64,000 nucleotides of DNA, taken from Patescibacteria group bacterium (GTDB lineage Bacteria; Patescibacteriota; Patescibacteriia; 2-01-FULL-39-33). The stretch is taken from contig JBAZRV010000003.1 of the NCBI GenBank assembly GCA_041662745.1, positions 56,034 to 120,033 of the forward strand, written 5' to 3'. Positions 1,925 through 54,552 of the stretch are shown here, one piece after another. The translations under genes and the position numbers were made by a program. The notes under the pieces were generated by a model. The model was not told the DNA's origin. It saw only the letters and a list, made by a program, of their open reading frames with translations, and searched no databases. The stretch's first letter is position 1. Each line of letters starts with the position of its first letter.

Positions 1925-1953
1925 TTGACAAAATATTTAAGGTGTGATATAAT
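1925..1953 (+). promoter_or_regulatory. consensus sigma70 promoter: -35 TTGACA (1925-1930), 17-nt spacer, extended -10 TGaTATAAT (1945-1953)
   Basis: exact TTGACA-N17-TATAAT with TG at -15/-14 read directly from sequence; predicted TSS about 1960, upstream of a GC-rich structured region. Confidence 0.6.
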
Positions 1954-1959
1954 AGTTTA

Positions 1960-2910
1960 TTCAAGATGATGGTTGTGGATAACTGAACAAAATTCAATTA
2001 TTGACAATATCATCTTGTGGCAGTTTAAAAGCTGTTTTAAAAGAGTTCTTCGGAGCTCTTTGTCAGGGCGGCATACGGCTTATGTCGTGTGTCGCCCTTG
2101 ACAAAGGTTTCTGAAAAGCGATGGCTAATTCTTGTTGATGGCTGTTTTTTTGAGTGGACATAGTCCGAACAGTATCGGCGAGAACGGTTGCAACGCAGAA
2201 ATCCAGGGTTCTTGGGTGGTATCGGCTGAAGGTGCCAATCCGACTTCGGGTCGGTCGCAGCTAATGCTTAAATAAAAAAATCGACCGAAGGCCGATGCCC
2301 CCAAGAATCCGACCTAAGAATCAGAAATGCACTTTAACGGCTGACTTAATTACGGTCAGCCCTCCACTTAAGCTCAGGATAAATCATGATCTTAACGGGA
2401 GCTTGAACATTACTAAGCATTCATCTGCGGCAGTTTGTCGCCGCATCGATATGATTAAGGCGTATGCTTGTCCGCCTGATCAAGTCCAAAGCCAAAAGCC
2501 GAGGATTTTGGGAGGAGATTGAGCTGAAGAGGGGGCATGGTTTGAAATTATATATTTACCAATCGCCTTAATTCACTTCTTCAAGTCTTGATTATATCGA
2601 TGCGGTAGCAATGTTTGGCCGTCAAGCAGGCGGGCAAACGCGCGCCGCAAGCACTTTCTTTGAAAGAAGAATTTCCCCACCGTCGGGCCATTATCCCGCC
2701 GGATCGGTAGACTTCCTCCTTTCTCTGGGGAGGCGTCATGTAACCGCATGCGCCTCCCCCACACGCCTCAGACAGTATGGTTCGAGGGCGCATAATCAAA
2801 TCCTCACAAGGGAAGCTTGGTTTTACGCTTACGGCTTAAGTACTGTTTGAGGCGTGTGTTTTAAAACGGCATTTCATTCTACGAGCAATCTCGTGAAGGA
2901 GGGTCTGTCT
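1960..2910 (+). ncRNA. unclassified GC-rich highly structured RNA (long 5' leader of zinc-ribbon operon or independent ncRNA)
   Basis: no credible ORF with RBS over ~950 nt; GC visibly above flanks; many perfect hairpins (UUCG-loop hairpins at 2042-2059 and 2244-2258; 18-bp helix 2760-2777/2841-2858; long-range helix 2207-2225/2292-2310); mutually exclusive hairpins around 2715-2757. Confidence 0.35.
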
Positions 2911-3093
2911 ATGGTAATTCAATGTTGCGTTTGCTCCAAGGTGCGTTCGGCCGGTACTTGGGAAGTCCGGAGCATCCCTCCCGGGGAGCAGGTTTCCCAC
3001 GGCTATTGCCCAGAATGCGCCGAAAAAGTGTTTCAGGGCATAGAGCGGGAGTTGGCCGCGCGACAAAAGAAGGAGGAGACCGTCAATGGCTAA
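2911..3093 (+). CDS. small zinc-ribbon protein (60 aa), CxxC ... YCPxCAE
   Basis: ATG at 2911 preceded by AGGAGGG (2897-2903); Cys pairs CCVC and CPEC; stop overlaps start of paralog (ATGGCTAA). Confidence 0.6.
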   Translation: MVIQCCVCSKVRSAGTWEVRSIPPGEQVSHGYCPECAEKVFQGIERELAARQKKEETVNG

Positions 3094-3286
3094 AGGTAAG
3101 TGTCCGGCTTGCTTCAAAGTTGAAGTAGCGCCGGGACAATGGAAGAATGTCGCCTTGCCGGTCGGCGAGGAAACATTTCCCCAATATTGTCCAAAGTGTG
3201 CCGAACACAACGCTTATGTTCGGGGGAGCATCCTGGCATCCAAGAGGTTGGCGGATGCGGCCCTGGCCTCGGCGTCGGGCAAATAG
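3086..3286 (+). CDS. small zinc-ribbon protein paralog (66 aa), CPAC ... YCPKCAE
   Basis: RBS GAAGGAGGAG upstream; same Cys spacing and shared YCPxCAE motif with preceding ORF; translationally coupled. Confidence 0.6.
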   Translation: MAKGKCPACFKVEVAPGQWKNVALPVGEETFPQYCPKCAEHNAYVRGSILASKRLADAALASASGK

Positions 3287-3293
3287 TTCAATG

Positions 3294-3322
3294 AAGGAGG
3301 AGGCTGCGCGCTTCCTCCTTTA
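3294..3322 (+). terminator. hairpin aaggaggagg-ctgcgcg-cttcctcctt with short T tract
   Basis: 10-bp stem (1 mismatch) immediately after zinc-ribbon operon stop; weak U-run. Confidence 0.4.
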
Positions 3323-3497
3323 AAATTAATTTTGATTTATCCACAGCCAGACTCTTGACACTATATTGTTTTTATAAAAATTTAAGATATAATTTTATAT
3401 TAAGGGATGACACTAAGCGTCAGGCATTTTCAATCGCACTTTCCTAAAAACATTTTTAGGATCACACTTAAGTGTGATTTCGAAAATTCTCGTCGCG

Positions 3498-3526
3498 TCT
3501 TCTCCAAGTCCCGCCCATGTGGCGGG
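3498..3526 (+). terminator. intrinsic terminator-like hairpin gtcccgcc-catg-tggcgggac + TTTTAATT
   Basis: 8-bp perfect GC-rich stem followed by T-run; lies in a hairpin-rich 200-nt intergenic stretch (perfect hairpin atcacact-taa-gtgtgat at 3459-3477). Confidence 0.45.
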
Positions 3527-3555
3527 ACTTTTAATTGGCTGATTTTTTTGATTAG

Positions 3556-3585: not shown

Positions 3586-3963
3586 ATGTCGCTTAAGCAA
3601 TTAATCATCATCGTTGCCATTGCCACATTATTATGCTGGGCCAGCTGGTTGCTGGTCATTTTTGAGGTGGATCCGACGACTGCCGGCTTTTACGGCTTGC
3701 TGATTTTTTATGCCAGCATGTTTTTTTCTTTGCTCGGCTTATTTTTTTTGATCAGTTTCGGTTTCAGGAAGATTTTCAACAAGCTGGAAATGGAATACAG
3801 GCTGGTGGGCATGTCTTTCCGCCAATCGTTTTTCTTTGCCCTGGCAGTCGTCGGTTTCTTTTTTTTGCAAAGCAAGGATTTGCTGACTTGGTGGAATAGC
3901 ATTATGTTGCTGGCGGCTCTGGTGATTTTGGAATTTTTCTTTTTGAGTTATCGGAAAAAGTAA
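3586..3963 (+). CDS. hypothetical small membrane protein (125 aa, 4 predicted TM)
   Basis: long ORF, hydrophobic segments. Confidence 0.55.
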   Translation: MSLKQLIIIVAIATLLCWASWLLVIFEVDPTTAGFYGLLIFYASMFFSLLGLFFLISFGFRKIFNKLEMEYRLVGMSFRQSFFFALAVVGFFFLQSKDLLTWWNSIMLLAALVILEFFFLSYRKK

Positions 3964-18693: not shown

Positions 18694-18853
18694 TTTCTTT
18701 ATTATATTATAGCAGTCTAGTCAATATTTGACAAAGACCGGCATAAGTATTAAGATGGGCAAATCATGGCACTTTATAAATAAACTGTAAAATAAGTTAA
18801 GATTTGTTGTTGTGAACGGGCAATATAATCAATCAAGTGGAGGACCAAAGACC

Positions 18854-19081
18854 ATGGCGATTTTAGAAGCGGATGGACAAATCATTTGTGATGGCATGAG
18901 AGAGGGCAGGAAGTGCCGGCGACAATTTAATATTATTAGGCCGTCGGCTGCGGCGATTGTCAGAAGTTCATTGGATTATTGGCGTAACGTATTGCAGCAA
19001 GCGCTGGATTGCAATTGGACTTATAACAGGGTGTCAAGGAAAATTTTTTGTCCTAAATGTTCTCAAATCAGACAGCCCTGA
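18854..19081 (+). CDS. hypothetical small Cys-containing protein (75 aa; CDG...KC ... CPKC)
   Basis: ATG with GGAGG 10 nt upstream; possible zinc-ribbon-like Cys pairs. Confidence 0.4.
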   Translation: MAILEADGQIICDGMREGRKCRRQFNIIRPSAAAIVRSSLDYWRNVLQQALDCNWTYNRVSRKIFCPKCSQIRQP

Positions 19082-29249: not shown

Positions 29250-30443
29250 CTAACGAACCATTGATAATTTAACATCCGAACGAACGGTGTGGCGGTAGCT
29301 CACGCTATATCGTTTTCGCAAATACTCATCCAAAATATTGCAACATTCTTGGTAGTGCCTCTCCCACTCCCTAATTTTTTGGGCGCTGAATTTTTCCGGA
29401 TCTTTGCCTTCTCGCAAAGCTTTGGCCTTAAGCCGGGCAAGAGTCGGGCCGTAAGGCTTTAGGGGGCCGATATGGACGCGCAAAGCGAAGTTCTCAATAT
29501 GTCTTTCAATCATCTCTAGCCATTTTTTCAAGCTGGCCGGATTCGGATTGTACATTTGCGGGAAAATATCCAGCCCTGCTTCCACTAATGTGCGCAGACA
29601 GAAAACCTGATCGGAAATAGTGGCGTTGGCTTGGACATTGTCTTGCAGATTGGCATTGTCCGTACCCTTAATGGCGGCTAAGACTTTAACCGGAAAAACT
29701 GCCAGATGACGGTAATAATCAATCGGCCACAAATGAGGCGTGGAGAGATTGGTGTCCACTTGTCCGACCATATCCTCTCCCCGTTCTTCAATTCGGCGCC
29801 AGAGTTTGATAATCCAGTCCAGCACTACGGTCGGCTCGCCGCCGGAAACGCGCAGGACTTTAATATTCAGATCAATCCCGGTTTGTTTTTTGTAAATTTC
29901 CCGCACCTTATCCCGAGCCATTAAGAAGCTGTCAATAACATCGTCAACCTCAACCAGCCATTTATTTCCGGTTTGACGCAGGCCGTCATTGAGTTTGTTA
30001 TCCACAAAACAGTAGAGACAACCGCCGTCGCAGGTTCCGGAATGGAAATTGCAGCCGGCGACCTGGAGGATAAATGGCGCATTATAATCTAAGGCGCGGG
30101 ACAATTCATAGCCTGCGATATGCTTGTACCACAAGGCAAAATCAAATTCTTGCTGCTTGAGATAGTCTTCAATTACTCCCGGAGACATCTTGCCGATGTC
30201 AATGAAGTCCTTGCCGTAAGCCTTGGCCGCCAAGGGATCAACATCTTTGGCATTGAATTTGAACCGGAAAACGCGTCGGCCGTCCCGGTTAGGCATCAGG
30301 TCTATAACCTTGCTTGTGTCTTGGCCTTGCAGCGAATCGGAAAAATCCGCTACCAGTAGCCGTCCCCCCGGCGTGATTACGGTTTGGCGCAAGGCGGTGG
30401 CGCGATCTAATGGACTTTGGACATACGACGGATTTTTAGACAT
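29250..30443 (-). CDS. radical SAM protein, uncharacterised subfamily (397 aa)
   Basis: cluster motif C-D-G-G-C-L-Y-C (Cx3Cx2C) preceded by extra Cys (CNFHSGTC); SAM-binding VSGGEPTV; ~130-aa N-terminal extension; overlaps upstream ORF by 8 nt. Confidence 0.7.
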   Translation of the reverse strand: MSKNPSYVQSPLDRATALRQTVITPGGRLLVADFSDSLQGQDTSKVIDLMPNRDGRRVFRFKFNAKDVDPLAAKAYGKDFIDIGKMSPGVIEDYLKQQEFDFALWYKHIAGYELSRALDYNAPFILQVAGCNFHSGTCDGGCLYCFVDNKLNDGLRQTGNKWLVEVDDVIDSFLMARDKVREIYKKQTGIDLNIKVLRVSGGEPTVVLDWIIKLWRRIEERGEDMVGQVDTNLSTPHLWPIDYYRHLAVFPVKVLAAIKGTDNANLQDNVQANATISDQVFCLRTLVEAGLDIFPQMYNPNPASLKKWLEMIERHIENFALRVHIGPLKPYGPTLARLKAKALREGKDPEKFSAQKIREWERHYQECCNILDEYLRKRYSVSYRHTVRSDVKLSMVR

Positions 30444-31968: not shown

Positions 31969-33840
31969 TTAAATTTTTTTCTTGATGCCGTACAGCCATT
32001 TGTTTTGCGTCCATTTCCATTTAGCGGTTAATAGCAAGAATTGCCGGCTGATGATAATAGCCGAGAACATGGAAACGGCAATGCCCAAGGCCAGAGTAAA
32101 AGCAAAACCGCGGATAATGCTGGAACCGAACCAGAATAAAATGGCGCAAGTGATTAAAGAGGAAAAGTTGGAGTCGCGGATTGAAGTCCAGGCGCGACCA
32201 AAGCCCTCATCAATGGCTTTCATTATGTCTTTGCCGGCGCGTAGTTCTTCTTTCAGGCGTTCAAAAATCAGGATATTGGCGTCTACGGCCATGCCGATGG
32301 ATAGAATGAAACCGGTAATGCCGGCCAAGGTCATGGTTACATGGATGATTTTAAACAAAGCCAGGGAGATGGCGGTATAAATTATCAAAGCGATAACTGA
32401 CAGTAAACCCGGTAAGCGGTAAAAGCCGATCATGAATAAGGCCACGGCCAATAAGCCGATAAAGCCGGCAAATAAGCTTTTCTGCACTGCTTCTTGGCCC
32501 AAGGTGGCTCCGACGGTGGTTTGGGAAACTAATTTGATCGGTACGGGCAAGGCGCCGGCATTTAAGCGCTGGGCCAATTTTTTGGCTTCATCCTGGGTAA
32601 AATTACCTTGAATTACGGCTTGGCCGCCCAAGATCGGTTCATTGACTTTGGGAATGGAAATAGCGGTGCCATCTAGGAATATGGCGACCGGTTTACCTAC
32701 GTTTCTGGTGGTGATATCGGCAAATAGTTGAGCGCCCTCATTGTCAAATTCCAAGGATACTTGCGGTACTAAGGCAGTCTGATCGTACTCTACTGAGGCC
32801 TTTTTTAAATTTTTTCCGGAAAGTTTAGTATTAATCCACTCCGGCTCTTGAGCGATACCCAAATCAACCGAAGTCTTGGTTTTTAGTAGGATATGGCGGA
32901 CACTAACCGTACGGCCATCGCCCGTCCCCTGATCTCCTTCCAGTTTAATGATGTGATAGCCGAAAGCAGTTTTGACCAGATCATTATAAACTTCGCCGAC
33001 TTTTAGTTTATTAAACGCAACATCGTCAAATTCGGTGACGAATTGGCCTTTTTTTACGCCCTCATATAATCCCCCGTTGTCTTTACTGCCGGGATCCTCG
33101 CTATATTGCTTGGCCAAAGCGGAAAAATCGGCTCCATTCTTAATCTGTTGCAAAATGTTCACAGCTTGCTTGCGCACCGTCAAATTCATATCATCCAATT
33201 GTTTCTGTTGTTCCGGGGTTAGTTGTTGCGCTTGCGGATTTTCTTCTTTGAATTCCAGAAGCGGTGTTTCGCCGATCATTTTGATGGCGGAATTAATGTC
33301 ATAAACGCCGGCCAATTCCACGCTAATACGCGGTTTATCGCCGGACATTGACGTTTGGACAATCGGCTCGGAAACGCCTAAGGCATTAACGCGCCGCTCA
33401 ATAACGTCTTTAGCTCCGGCTAAAGCGTCATTCCTGCCGGCCAGAGGAATTTGTGATAAGTCAGCGTCATAAGTCAACTGGGCTCCGCCAAGCAAATCAA
33501 GGCCAAGACGAAACGGCAGGCCGTAAGATGATAATTCAATTTGTTTAATATTGCGCCAAACCAGCCGACTACTGTTGTCGGAAACGTTTTTTTCCATTTT
33601 AGGGAAAATGTTCAAGTTAGAAATGACGGGAACGGCGGATAACCCGGCGTCCATAGCGTCAGCCGCTTTATTTTTGAAGCCGATGATGTCAATATAGGCG
33701 GCAATCAAAAACAAAATGGCAATACCGAAAAGCACCCAGCGGAGTCGGCCTCTTTGACCGGGTTTTAGCAGTTTTTCAAAGAAATTTTGCTGCATGTGTT
33801 TCTGTGGATAATAGTTAAAATGATGGATAAATCTTAACAA
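31969..33840 (-). CDS. secD: protein translocase subunit SecD with embedded PpiC/parvulin-type PPIase-like domain
   Basis: SecD motifs LGLDLLGGAQ, C-terminal 5-6 TM bundle; periplasmic insert ...GADFSALAKQYSEDPGSKDNGGLYEGVKKGQFVTEFDDVAFNKLKVGEVYNDLVKTAFGYHIIK... matches parvulin signature. Confidence 0.85.
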   Translation of the reverse strand: MLRFIHHFNYYPQKHMQQNFFEKLLKPGQRGRLRWVLFGIAILFLIAAYIDIIGFKNKAADAMDAGLSAVPVISNLNIFPKMEKNVSDNSSRLVWRNIKQIELSSYGLPFRLGLDLLGGAQLTYDADLSQIPLAGRNDALAGAKDVIERRVNALGVSEPIVQTSMSGDKPRISVELAGVYDINSAIKMIGETPLLEFKEENPQAQQLTPEQQKQLDDMNLTVRKQAVNILQQIKNGADFSALAKQYSEDPGSKDNGGLYEGVKKGQFVTEFDDVAFNKLKVGEVYNDLVKTAFGYHIIKLEGDQGTGDGRTVSVRHILLKTKTSVDLGIAQEPEWINTKLSGKNLKKASVEYDQTALVPQVSLEFDNEGAQLFADITTRNVGKPVAIFLDGTAISIPKVNEPILGGQAVIQGNFTQDEAKKLAQRLNAGALPVPIKLVSQTTVGATLGQEAVQKSLFAGFIGLLAVALFMIGFYRLPGLLSVIALIIYTAISLALFKIIHVTMTLAGITGFILSIGMAVDANILIFERLKEELRAGKDIMKAIDEGFGRAWTSIRDSNFSSLITCAILFWFGSSIIRGFAFTLALGIAVSMFSAIIISRQFLLLTAKWKWTQNKWLYGIKKKI

Positions 33841-53247: not shown

Positions 53248-53559
53248 GTTATAGACGCGATTTTTCGTTAACTAACGTCTTACTTGATTTGAATTATTTA
53301 TATTTTTACTTATTATAAGGCCGGCCGGTCACCTTGGCCTCAAACTTCTTTTTTCTGGCGCTTTTCTTGTCTTCCTGTTTGACTAAGCGAGGCACCTTGA
53401 TCTTCGGATCCCTTTTTCTTTTTGCCATATGTTTATTATTGCTGGGGCAAAACCGAACTAATCTCAAATTAGAAAGTCGTCGGTTTTGCTGTTCTTTTAA
53501 TTAATCTATGTTTTATTCTAACAAATTTATCGCTGTTTGGCAAGATTTTGCCAAAAAAA

Positions 53560-54350
53560 AGAGCCCCCGTAACTTTGGTCGCACACCCATGAAACATTAC
53601 TATTTATTGGTGTGTGGCTAGTTGACGGGGGTCAAAATTAAAGGTGCTTTCGAATGGCGGGGATCGGAGCGTTTTTAGACGCTCTTTTCGGCCGGGTCCG
53701 GAAGAGGCTCCATCACAAAATTCCTGAGCCGCTAATGCGAGAGCTCCGCTAAACAACGCCGCGCTAACGCCCATTTCCATTACACTTTGGCAGCGCGAAC
53801 GATCAATGACCGATGGCGGACCTCATGGCAACAAACAAATCCGGATATTCGGGCCGCATCCTGCGCCCCGATCCCCAAATTCAGCCGGTTGGTGTTTATT
53901 CCTGAGGGGCCCGGCTTGCCCCTAAATACATCGTTGTGTATTTGGCATGTTTGGTTTCCTTTGGCGGCCGGGATTAACGCACCCCTTTCATTAACTGGTC
54001 GGTGCGCCTAACCACCTGGCAACAGGGCCGGGGCGCTGTCCAATATAGCGATCCCCTGCTATGCTTTTATCTACAAGTTGCCAGTTCGTTAACCCTCGTA
54101 ATTACACAAACCCCACGGGATAACGACTCATTAGGAGCCCTCCAGTTTTGTTTGGCCGATAGTTGGCCATGCCCGTTTTAACTATCCAGATGTTCGCCAA
54201 CGGGCGAGACTCTGGAAAAAACGATACTACTGCTGACTGTCAATGAGCTTGGTGAGCGCGAGACGGAAGCGGCCCTTAAGCCTAGGAATGGAACGAATAT
54301 GTTGGTTCCCCCACTTTCCGTCTCGCCTCACCTTTGAGCTTCAATCATAT
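53560..54350. ncRNA. unclassified GC-rich structured noncoding region next to tRNA-Gln (candidate large ncRNA or decayed element)
   Basis: ~1.3 kb without credible ORF; GC clearly above flanks; long-range helix 54253-54269/54317-54334 and many local GC hairpins (53903-53918 gaggggc-ccggctt-gcccc; 53622-53635). Confidence 0.3.
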
Positions 54351-54552
54351 CACATCGTTAATATTTTGTCAATAGCTTTATCCACAGGCAAATTATTAAT
54401 AATAAAAAATTAGTGTAAATTTAGCTAAAATAAATTAATTTATTTTATGATTAAAATGGCGATAATCCGCCATAGGCGGTTTTGCCGGAAAACAAACTTA
54501 AATAAAACTATAGACTTGCCCCAAGAGCGTCTATCAGTTAGAATGAAGTTGT

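What the first reader, a model, noticed from the sequence alone, without database searches (positions are those of the whole stretch)
2911..3286. Tandem, translationally coupled paralogous zinc-ribbon mini-proteins (60 and 66 aa)
Both ORFs have strong AGGAGG sites. The second start overlaps the first stop (ATGGCTAA). Both share C-x2-C ... (E)...Y-C-P-x-C-A-E spacing (CCVC/CPEC and CPAC/CPKC). A third similar small Cys protein lies at 18854-19081 (CDG..KC...CPKC). Duplicated Zn-ribbon mini-proteins behind a giant structured leader suggest a regulated small-protein module, for example nucleic-acid binding or antitoxin-like.
Basis: partly seen in the sequence, partly recalled or inferred. Interest (0 to 1): 0.5.

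Follow-up and report, generated by a model that had tools for sequence, protein, structure and literature searches.

The report
Zinc mini-protein pair behind conserved RNA
Two overlapping genes for ~60-residue zinc-binding proteins are real and conserved, and they end a transcript whose ~950-base structured leader is conserved better than the proteins: an undescribed RNA-plus-small-protein unit in a clade of Patescibacteria.

Summary
ORF1 (2911-3093, 60 aa) and ORF2 (3086-3286, 66 aa) have AGGAGG sites, overlap by 8 nt and are paralogs (44% identity, E=3e-8). The pair recurs, always overlapping, in five related Patescibacteria loci. dN/dS is 0.14-0.52.

ORF1 belongs to an unannotated family: 213 clusters of 50-80-aa proteins with the motif MxxQCCxCKKVR..G.W...SHGYCPxC. 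It has no qualifying Pfam, NCBIfam or PDB match. The same module ends PAS, receiver and membrane sensor proteins. AlphaFold models (pLDDT 92-93) show a Cys4 knuckle/beta unit plus a long helix. That is closer to a treble clef than to a classical zinc ribbon.

The Cys protein at 18812-19081 is unrelated. Nothing supports an antitoxin.

The leader is a consensus promoter followed by ~950 nt. It folds with z=-11.6 and is 83-93% identical between genomes whose synonymous sites differ at 51-61%. Covariation is strong (95-98% of cells paired against 31-47% in slid controls). It has no Rfam match. In every locus with enough downstream sequence except L023, a family member follows it.

Best reading: a dual-function RNA plus small zinc-protein module. 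The proteins are binding modules that probably act on or with their own RNA. That mechanism is inferred, not shown.

The parts
1925..1953 (+). Sigma-70 promoter: TTGACA, 17-nt spacer, TATAAT, with TG extension
   Evidence: 12/12 consensus match. Positions 1916-1960 are 98-100% identical in L005 and L004. A similar promoter is present in 8 of the 9 other loci whose sequence covers this position; L013 has TTGACA but TATACT as its -10.
1974..1982 (-). TGTGGATAA on the + strand (DnaA-box consensus TTATCCACA on the - strand), about 20 nt after the -10
   Evidence: Exact match. Conserved at the same relative place in L004, L005, L012, L015, L016, L017 and L021.
1960..2910 (+). Long structured non-coding leader (approximate 5' end inferred from the promoter)
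   Evidence: MFE -400.9 against -288.4 for shuffles, z=-11.6. No + strand terminator inside it. Indels of 2 nt between relatives argue against coding. No Rfam match.
2020..2121 (+). Leader module A: two conserved hairpins
   Evidence: Helix 1 of alignment A5 has 27 pairs, 10 with compensatory changes, 95.5% of cells paired. It is also detected in L006 (nhmmer E=2e-8).
2122..2397 (+). Window-specific 276-nt structured insertion between modules A and B
   Evidence: Absent from L004 and L005. Unique, with no repeat elsewhere. MFE -94.9. No Rfam hit.
2398..2612 (+). Leader module B: a long closing helix around the invariant 20-mer AAGGCGTATGCTTGTCCGCC (2457-2476) and a conserved UAGGAGG
   Evidence: Helix 2 has 24 pairs, 10 compensatory. 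Helix 5 has 7 pairs, 5 compensatory. The 20-mer is exact in 11 metagenome contigs.
2613..2757 (+). Leader region C, variable between lineages
   Evidence: 88-90% identical within the close group. Replaced or absent in L012, L013, L015, L016, L018 and L021. L012, L013 and L018 carry extra small ORFs here.
2758..2866 (+). Leader module D: a 16-bp closing helix plus inner helices, just upstream of ORF1
   Evidence: Alignment A6: 34 pairs, 98.4% of cells paired against 31-43% when slid. 11 pairs show compensatory change against 0-2 when slid.
2896..2902 (+). Shine-Dalgarno site AAGGAGG of ORF1
   Evidence: Read directly from the sequence. GGAG-type sites precede ORF1 in most relatives; none is evident upstream of the start inferred for L015.
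2911..3093 (+). ORF1: 60-aa Cys4 mini-protein, a canonical member of the CCxC...SHGYCPxC family
   Evidence: AF2 pLDDT 91.7. dN/dS 0.26-0.35. NCBI locus tag WC668_02745.
3071..3076 (+). Shine-Dalgarno site AGGAGG of ORF2, inside ORF1
   Evidence: Equivalent sites are seen in L005, L015 and L016.
3086..3286 (+). ORF2: 66-aa divergent paralog (CPAC...YCPKC; lacks the Ser-His of the SHGYCP motif)
   Evidence: AF2 pLDDT 92.6 with the same fold. Orthologs P0002 and P0007. dN/dS 0.14-0.52. NCBI locus tag WC668_02750.
3292..3322 (+). Intrinsic terminator: 13-bp stem, then a T-rich tail
   Evidence: The stem is conserved in L005 and L004.
3337..3345 (+). TTATCCACA (DnaA-box consensus) just past the terminator. 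It is the inverted partner of 1974-1982.
   Evidence: inverted repeat I2: 27 nt, 78% complementary. Conserved in L004, L005, L012, L015, L016 and L018.

Best explanation
Shown: the unit is one transcription unit of about 1.37 kb, conserved in a clade of Patescibacteria (Ca. Buchananbacteria and relatives). It has four parts in order.
- A consensus sigma-70 promoter.
- A 650-950-nt non-coding RNA with at least three conserved, covarying structural modules.
- Two overlapping cistrons, so translation is probably coupled.
- An intrinsic terminator.

The cistrons encode paralogous ~60-aa proteins. Each is predicted to hold one metal, most likely zinc, through CxxC...CPxC. The fold is a small knuckle/beta unit followed by a long C-terminal helix. 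ORF1 is a standard member of a widespread, unannotated small-protein family. ORF2 is a lineage-specific divergent copy.

Inferred: the same module forms the C-terminal end of PAS, receiver and membrane sensor proteins, so it is probably a binding (output) module and not an enzyme. The two paralogs probably pair through their helices. Their most likely partner is the RNA that carries them. On that reading the unit would be a dual-function RNA: its structured 5' part works with, or is controlled by, the two small zinc proteins encoded in its 3' part, either as a ribonucleoprotein or through autoregulatory feedback.
For: The genes are real:
- Paralogy at E=3e-8.
- 213 family clusters at E<=1e-3, nearly all 50-80 aa with the domain at the N-terminus. 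Of the 151 sequences held, 149 carry CxxC...CxxC.
- Invariant C5, C8, C33, C36; near-invariant W17, H30, Y32, P34.
- dN/dS 0.14-0.52 while synonymous sites of neighbouring genes differ at 51-61%.
- The pair recurs in L005, L004 and L017 (partial). It is probably also in L015 and L016, whose second ORF matches the family only weakly (E=0.02). The stop/start overlap is 4-23 nt in all of them.

Fold:
- AF2 pLDDT 91.7 (ORF1) and 92.6 (ORF2), with the same strand/helix layout.

Output-module reading:
- The long form ...CCxCKKIR...W.PIE.YI..HSE..FSHGYCPEC ends PAS_3 (P0213), receiver-like (P0211), 7TMR-DISM (P0212, P0208) and other membrane proteins.
- Some sources name relatives 'response regulator'.

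One transcript:
- 12/12 promoter, no internal + strand terminator, and a terminator after ORF2.

The leader is functional:
- z=-11.6.
- 83-93% nucleotide identity, against 69-73% for ORF1 and 59-78% for ORF2.
- 95.1% of cells paired against 38-47% when slid; 25 compensatory pairs against 3-8 when slid; 0 of 500 shuffles reach the observed value.
- Module D: 98.4% paired against 31-43% when slid.

RNA-protein link:
- The leader 20-mer is exact in 11 metagenome contigs, 7 of them new and 4 duplicating loci already held.
- In nine of the eleven leader-bearing loci, window included, a family member starts 350-760 nt downstream of the 20-mer. L021 is cut off after the start of a different Cys-rich ORF, and L023 is the exception listed below.
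- A divergent copy of the leader also precedes the family member of L006 in a different genomic context.
Against: - No experiment shows transcription, translation, metal content or any binding.
- In L023 a short form of leader modules A+B precedes an unrelated 107-aa gene. The RNA core can therefore work without a family member directly downstream.
- Family members in other phyla (Hydrogenedentes-like, Desulfobulbaceae) are single genes with short leaders that are not clearly structured (mononucleotide-shuffle z -0.9 to -2.9). The Hydrogenedentes-like ones have a sigma-54-type promoter. The protein therefore does not need this RNA.
- Heterodimer formation is pure inference.
Confidence: 0.5

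Rival explanations
1. The leader is purely a cis-acting sensor, such as a very large riboswitch or a protein- or metal-responsive leader. It sets expression of whatever lies downstream. The zinc mini-proteins are simply its usual cargo and have an unrelated cellular target.
For: - The A+B core also precedes an unrelated gene in L023.
- The core has invariant single-stranded-looking segments.
- A conserved SD-like UAGGAGG is paired to invariant CCGCC/UCC, and an alternative local hairpin is possible.
- The cargo proteins bind metal. In L006 the unit sits next to feoA.
Against: - No conserved expression platform was found. There is no + strand terminator in the leader, and the sequence just before the SD is not conserved between lineages.
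- The conserved RNA (230-950 nt) is far larger than known riboswitch aptamers.
- Variable region C, which in some loci holds extra ORFs, separates the core from the regulated start by 300-560 nt.
Confidence: 0.28
2. The leader is an independent, trans-acting non-coding RNA gene. The two small genes merely share its promoter and terminator, with no functional link between RNA and proteins.
For: - The leader is more conserved than the ORFs.
- The protein family occurs without the RNA in other phyla.
- The RNA core occurs without the protein in L023.
Against: - RNA and protein are adjacent in nine of the eleven leader-bearing loci, and again in the differently placed L006 locus.
- No terminator or second promoter of quality lies between leader and ORF1.
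- No complementary target for the invariant 20-mer was found in the 64-kb window.
Confidence: 0.15
3. The metal site is redox-active iron (rubredoxin-like Fe(Cys)4, or a Bfd-like [2Fe-2S] site using the C-x-C of CCxC). On this reading the proteins are small electron carriers or redox/iron sensors, not zinc structural modules.
For: - The CxxC...CPxC spacing resembles rubredoxin.
- There are weak sub-threshold rubredoxin-type hits.
- One source names a relative 'bacterioferritin-associated ferredoxin'.
- feoA is a neighbour in L006.
Against: - No rubredoxin or Fer2_BFD Pfam hit reaches threshold.
- The second Cys of CCxC is not conserved: ORF2 has CPAC and other members have CAWC or CSFC.
- The second knuckle opens a long helix, unlike rubredoxin.
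Confidence: 0.1
4. The pair is an antitoxin-like or defence module.
For: Some antitoxins (MqsA type) carry zinc ribbons. There are three sub-threshold MqsA hits among 58 family members.
Against: - There is no toxin-like partner and no HTH domain.
- There are no PADLOC or PHROG matches.
- The unit sits in a fixed housekeeping neighbourhood (MacB-type ABC operon ... pheS/pheT) in nine of the eleven leader-bearing loci.
Confidence: 0.03

Closest known systems
Pfam DUF2197 (YlaI-like small Cys4 proteins of Firmicutes)
   Same: About 50-60-aa stand-alone bacterial proteins with an N-terminal CxxC and a later H-x-Y-x-C-x2-C-type knuckle. One family member (P0074) aligns over the whole domain (residues 1-48 to profile positions 1-49 of 56), and JGI names it YlaI.
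   Different: Scores stay below the Pfam cut-off: 17.5 bits against 22.2. Only 5 of 58 members give any hit, and ORF1 and ORF2 give none. DUF2197 itself has no known function.
One-domain zinc-finger micro-proteins of Haloferax volcanii (HVO_2753 and others; PMC6562870)
   Same: Very small stand-alone CxxC...CxxC proteins with regulatory or stress phenotypes. There are weak sub-threshold hits to HVO_2753_ZBP and HVO_0649 models.
   Different: They are archaeal, with no significant sequence relationship and a different cysteine spacing. They have no associated structured RNA.
ZAD and PHD treble-clef zinc modules (eukaryotic)
OLE RNA with its Oap proteins (from my own knowledge, not tested here)
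   Same: A large (~600 nt), highly conserved structured bacterial RNA encoded next to genes for small partner proteins and a small membrane protein. Here a conserved 125-154-aa membrane protein gene follows the unit in the syntenic loci.
   Different: No sequence or structure match to OLE or any Rfam family. Here the proteins are translated from the same RNA. RNP formation has not been shown.
Dual-function RNAs such as RNAIII or SgrS (review PMC12612679)
   Same: One transcript combines a conserved structured RNA part with small-protein coding.
   Different: Known examples are 100-500 nt, act by base pairing, and encode peptides mostly under 50 aa. Here the non-coding part is 650-950 nt, two Cys4 proteins are encoded, and no target is known.

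Membership tests
Unnamed CCxC...SHGYCPxC small-protein family (defined here from the HMMER hits) | 50-80-aa protein with the N-terminal motif M-x-x-Q-C-C-x-C-K-K-[VI]-R, then G-x-W, then [VI]-S-H-[GT]-Y-C-P-x-C followed by a helix | tested here: met
   ORF1 carries every element and scores 3.4e-27 with the family profile. ORF2 keeps CxxC, W, Y and CPxC but lacks Ser-His. It scores 7.2e-17, so it is a divergent member.
Classical zinc ribbon fold | Two CxxC knuckles | tested here: met
   C5/C8 and C33/C36 in ORF1, C6/C9 and C35/C38 in ORF2. All four are invariant in 58 sequences.
Classical zinc ribbon fold | Both knuckles sit on beta-hairpins of a three-stranded sheet | tested here: not met
   In both AF2 models the second knuckle (CPxC) opens a 26-28-residue helix (H34-59 and H36-63). 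That is the treble-clef arrangement. This rests on prediction only.
Classical zinc ribbon fold | Binds one zinc ion | not testable with these tools
   Needs metal analysis of purified protein.
Pfam DUF2197 (YlaI) | Score at or above the Pfam gathering threshold (22.2 bits) | tested here: not met
   No hit for ORF1 or ORF2. The hit shown for a family member (P0074) is 17.5 bits, and the best E-value among the 58 members is 8.7e-4.
Zinc-ribbon antitoxin / toxin-antitoxin pair | Adjacent toxin gene, a DNA-binding (HTH) domain, and a match to TA or defence models | tested here: not met
   The neighbours are a second Cys4 paralog, an sRNA-like unit and a membrane protein gene. There are no PADLOC or PHROG hits. 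MqsA hits occur only at E>=0.068 in 3 of 58 members.
Zinc-ribbon ribosomal proteins (L33, L44e and similar) | Match to the NCBIfam or Pfam model above its cut-off | tested here: not met
   Only fragmentary hits at E>=0.02, covering the CPxC-plus-helix stretch alone.
Rubredoxin | CxxCG...CPxCG knuckles and a match to the Pfam or NCBIfam rubredoxin model | tested here: not met
   Only two members hit rubredoxin-like models, at E about 0.02-0.03. No Gly follows either knuckle in ORF1 or ORF2.
Any Rfam 15 RNA family (for the leader) | Covariance-model score at or above the gathering score | tested here: not met
   There is nothing in the leader at gathering score. There is nothing relevant at E<=5 to 10 in the window leader, nor at E<=0.5 in the leaders of L012, L013, L017, L023 and L006.
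Riboswitch-type cis-regulatory leader | Conserved structured domain in the 5' UTR, supported by covariation | tested here: met
Riboswitch-type cis-regulatory leader | Expression platform: a terminator/antiterminator or an SD-sequestering helix next to the regulated start | tested here: not met
   There is no + strand terminator between 1953 and 3292. The 40-50 nt before the SD differ between lineages. This is a simple scan, so a non-canonical platform is not excluded.
Riboswitch-type cis-regulatory leader | Binds a specific ligand | not testable with these tools
   Needs in-line probing or ITC.
Dual-function RNA | The same transcript is translated and also has a non-coding function | tested here: inconclusive
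   Coding is supported by dN/dS and family membership. Constraint on the non-coding part is supported by conservation and covariation. A single transcript is inferred only from promoter and terminator scans.

The most novel reading that the evidence does not exclude
The ~650-950-nt leader and the two zinc mini-proteins translated from its 3' end assemble into a previously unknown ribonucleoprotein specific to a clade of Patescibacteria, comparable in kind to the OLE RNP. The CCxC...SHGYCPxC module would then be a new RNA-binding zinc domain, which free-living phyla also use as the output domain of PAS, receiver and membrane sensors.
Probability: 0.2. Interest if true: 0.8.

Novelty: new variant of a known kind. 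Interest (0 to 1): 0.58.

Why it matters
Patescibacteria have tiny genomes, yet they keep almost a kilobase of non-coding RNA here under stronger constraint than the adjacent proteins. Large structured bacterial RNAs of unknown function are rare, and each one found so far has opened new biology.

The encoded proteins define a Cys4 module with no Pfam or NCBIfam model and no related solved structure detected. The module occurs in several phyla as a free mini-protein and as the C-terminal end of sensor proteins. A function found for it here would carry over to hundreds of uncharacterised signalling proteins.

The unit is compact: one promoter, one RNA, two 60-aa proteins. It is therefore easy to test in vitro, even though the organisms are uncultured.

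Tried and rejected
1. A word-indexed search with ORF1 alone found only itself. A full HMMER scan with a two-sequence profile was needed.
The downstream membrane protein served as the anchor instead and gave only two genome loci.
4. Pfam, NCBIfam, PDB sequence, PADLOC and PHROG searches gave no qualifying hit.
5. Rfam at gathering score and at permissive E-values matched nothing in the leader, either in the window or in five homologous loci.
6. The idea that the unit is a mobile element bounded by the 27-nt inverted repeat was rejected. Nine of the eleven loci share the same flanking genes, and there are no copies in viral contigs.
7. Coding potential inside the leader was rejected. The ORFs there on either strand are broken by 2-nt indels between relatives.
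8. The window-specific 276-nt insertion is not a repeat or MITE.
9. No complementary target for the invariant 20-mer was found in the window. The single 3-mismatch site is the same strand sense and not complementary.
10. Literature searches for the motif strings and for CPR structured RNAs found nothing relevant.
11. A first z-score script timed out. It was redone with mononucleotide shuffles, which is a weaker control.

Full report
**1. The observation**

ORF1 (2911-3093, 60 aa) and ORF2 (3086-3286, 66 aa) are present as described.
- ORF1 is preceded by AAGGAGG at 2896-2902, with an 8-nt spacer.
- ORF2 is preceded by AGGAGG at 3071-3076, with a 9-nt spacer.
- The ORF2 ATG lies inside the last codons of ORF1 (ATGGCTAA, 8-nt overlap).
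- A 13-bp terminator hairpin follows at 3292-3322.
- BLASTP of the two products gives 16/36 identities (44%), E=3e-8 for that single comparison. Both CxxC motifs, a Trp, G-E, and Y-C-P-x-C-A-E are aligned.
- The 'third' Cys protein (ORF 18812-19081) is not related. A profile of the family scores it at E=2, against 3.4e-27 for ORF1 and 7.2e-17 for ORF2.

**2. Source organism and conservation**

- The exact proteins are on record as hypothetical proteins WC668_02745 and WC668_02750 of a 'Patescibacteria group bacterium' MAG.
- Two other samples hold identical DNA.
- Syntenic loci were found in a Ca. Buchananbacteria MAG (L004), a JGI contig (L005) and further metagenome contigs (L012, L013, L015-L018, L021).
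- The shared order is HlyD / ABC / FtsX (MacB type), then the unit, then a 125-154-aa membrane protein, then pheS ... pheT.
- L005 and L004 carry both ORFs.
- ORF2-type proteins are also found in L017 (partial). L015 and L016 carry very divergent second ORFs (E=0.02).
- In every case the second start overlaps the first stop: 4, 4, 8, 14, 20 and 23 nt. This is the arrangement expected for translational coupling.
- Between the window, L005 and L004, the neighbouring genes have synonymous differences of 0.51-0.61 per site with dN/dS 0.03-0.07. ORF1 has dN/dS 0.26-0.35 and ORF2 0.14-0.52.
- Both ORFs are therefore protein-coding and under purifying selection, though looser than their neighbours.

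**3. The protein family**

- A full HMMER scan of 1.84 billion cluster representatives, using a profile of the two domains, found 213 proteins at E<=1e-3.
- Of the 151 sequences then held, 149 carry CxxC...CxxC. Almost all are 50-80 aa with the domain at the very N-terminus.
- The consensus is M-x-[IV]-Q-C-C-V-C-K-K-V-R-x(2-3)-G-x-W-x(8-14)-[VI]-S-H-[GT]-Y-C-P-x-C-A followed by a helix.
- The four Cys are invariant. M1, W17, H30, Y32 and P34 are nearly invariant.
- ORF1 is a typical member. ORF2 (CPAC ... FPQYCPKC) has close relatives only in the sister genomes (P0002, P0007).
- Named sources include Ca. Buchananbacteria, Hydrogenedentes, Desulfobulbaceae and Victivallales.
- No Pfam, NCBIfam or PDB sequence match reaches threshold.
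- The nearest family is DUF2197/YlaI. One member aligns end to end at 17.5 bits, against a cut-off of 22.2.
- A longer form of the module (...CCxCKKIR...W.PIE.YI..HSE..FSHGYCPEC) closes PAS_3, receiver-like, 7TMR-DISM and other membrane proteins. It also exists as 57-105-aa proteins, again without Pfam coverage.
- Some Patescibacteria ORF1 orthologs carry an extra ~100-aa C-terminal domain of unknown type (P0033, L012, L015, L016).

**4. Structure**

- AlphaFold2 with the family alignment gives confident models: ORF1 pLDDT 91.7 and ORF2 pLDDT 92.6.
- Both have the same layout: a short strand, the first knuckle, a beta-hairpin, another strand, then the second knuckle opening a 26-28-residue helix.
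- This is the treble-clef arrangement and not a classical zinc ribbon.
- Foldseek against the PDB is not significant.
- Metal identity and any dimerisation are inferences.

**5. The leader**

- A perfect promoter (TTGACA-17-TATAAT with TG) sits at 1925-1953. No + strand terminator occurs before 3292. The ORFs are therefore probably the 3' end of a ~1.37-kb RNA.
- The + strand of 1958-2915 folds at -400.9 kcal/mol, against -288.4 +/- 9.7 for shuffles (z=-11.6). This is 78 kcal/mol better than the - strand.
- Across the window, L005 and L004 the leader is 83-93% identical and the promoter 98-100%. ORF1 is 69-73% and ORF2 59-78%. Indels of 2 nt rule out coding.
- The window alone has a unique 276-nt structured insertion at 2122-2397.
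- An invariant 20-mer (2457-2476) occurs exactly in 11 metagenome contigs, 7 of them new.
- On ten distinct sequences, modules A+B give 68 predicted pairs.
  - 95.1% of cells are paired, against 38-47% when the partner is slid.
  - 25 pairs show compensatory change, against 3-8 when slid.
  - No shuffle out of 500 reaches the observed values.
- Module D gives 34 pairs, 98.4% paired against 31-43% when slid, and 11 compensatory pairs against 0-2 when slid.
- Rfam 15 has no match in the window or in five homologous loci.

**6. The link between RNA and proteins**

- In nine of the eleven leader-bearing loci, window included, a family member starts 350-760 nt after the 20-mer. L021 is cut off after the start of a different Cys-rich ORF, and L023 is the exception below.
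- A divergent leader precedes the family member of L006 in a different neighbourhood (UvrD-like ... feoA). It has the same promoter type, module A at nhmmer E=2e-8 and a recognisable module B. A different small Cys-rich ORF follows the family member there.
- The exception is L023. A short A+B core precedes an unrelated 107-aa ORF in another context.
- Outside Patescibacteria the protein occurs alone.
  - In five Hydrogenedentes-type loci it is divergent from an ABC_tran/ABC2_membrane/ABC_transp_aux operon.
  - Those loci have a conserved sigma-54-like TGGCAC-N5-(A/T)TGC element 40-70 nt upstream and only weakly structured leaders.
  - In a Desulfobulbaceae locus it lies next to ptsH-ptsI and an ECF sigma/anti-sigma pair.

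**7. Interpretation**

Shown:
- The unit is a conserved transcription-unit architecture.
- The leader is under selection for both sequence and structure.
- The two proteins are under selection as proteins.

Inferred:
- The Cys4 module is a binding module and not a catalytic one. The reasons are its small size, the absence of catalytic motifs, and its use as the C-terminal end of sensor proteins.
- The paralogs act together.
- Their partner is the RNA that encodes them.

The main rival is a purely cis-acting sensor leader. The L023 case favours it. The absence of a conserved terminator or SD-sequestering platform, and the sheer size of the RNA, count against it. An antitoxin or defence role is not supported. 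A redox-iron site cannot be excluded by sequence, but no model supports it.

**8. Novelty**

- Small zinc-finger proteins and mRNA leaders are both known kinds.
- This protein family has no model in Pfam or NCBIfam.
- The RNA has no family in Rfam.
- Searches of the paper library for the motif strings and for CPR structured RNAs found nothing.
- I rate it a new variant of a known kind, with a moderate chance that it is a new RNP.

Noticed in passing
window 3395-3540 (+): Candidate ~145-nt small RNA between the zinc-protein unit and the membrane-protein gene. It has its own TATAAT and its own terminator (GTCCCGCC...GGCGGGAC TTTT). It is conserved in L005, L004, L012, L015, L016 and L018. 19 of 46 predicted pairs show compensatory changes. 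Only sub-threshold Rfam hits to its terminator hairpin. It contains a conserved CUUCUCC stretch.
   Followed up: partly
window ~53550-54345 (- strand): A second long ORF-poor structured region (796 nt; MFE -294.3 against -264.5 for shuffles, z=-6.5). It is driven by a promoter almost identical to the leader promoter (TTGACAAAATATTAACGATGTGATATGAT), with TGTGGATAA just upstream of the -35. No Rfam hit at E<=1. A terminator-like end lies near 53560, upstream of tRNA-Gln.
   Followed up: partly
window 1974-1982, 3337-3345, 29998-30006, 33803-33811, 54378-54386: Five perfect DnaA-box consensus 9-mers (TTATCCACA) against 0.42 expected. Two of them bracket the RNA/zinc-protein unit in inverted orientation, and both are conserved at the same places in most related loci. 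Whether they bind DnaA, serve another factor, or pair in RNA is unknown.
   Followed up: partly
window 2122-2397: A 276-nt highly structured insertion in the leader (MFE -94.9), present only in this organism and its identical copies. It is not repeated elsewhere and has no Rfam match. It also contains a - strand terminator-like hairpin at 2304-2285.
   Followed up: yes
L023:501-730 and the ORF at L023:773-1096: A short version (~230 nt) of leader modules A+B, with the invariant 20-mer, precedes an unrelated 107-aa protein with no family match. The genomic context is different.
   Followed up: partly
L008, L009, L010, L026, L028 (about 40-70 nt upstream of the family gene): Hydrogenedentes-type family members carry a conserved sigma-54-like element (TTGGCACGG..ATGCT). 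They are always divergent from an ABC_tran / ABC2_membrane / ABC_transp_aux operon, while their other neighbours differ.
   Followed up: partly
L012:1306-1584, L013 ~2290-2390, L018 ~290-500, L006:4249-4437: The variable part of the leader, or the position after the family gene, carries other small ORFs in some lineages. Several are Cys-rich, for example a 92-aa protein with CKGC...CDEC in L012 and a 62-aa protein with CEVC-x8-CVGC in L006.
   Followed up: no
L012:1765-2208, L015, L016 (P0033 type): Some ORF1 orthologs are ~146-149 aa. The Cys4 module is fused to a ~100-aa C-terminal domain that has no Pfam, PADLOC or PHROG match.
   Followed up: partly
It is unrelated to the family (E=2). Its reality as a gene was not examined.
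   Followed up: partly
window 3586-3963 (+): The 125-aa multi-pass membrane protein that follows the unit in the syntenic loci is 89-94% identical between genomes (dN/dS 0.03-0.07). It has no family match. Whether it is functionally tied to the unit is open.
   Followed up: no
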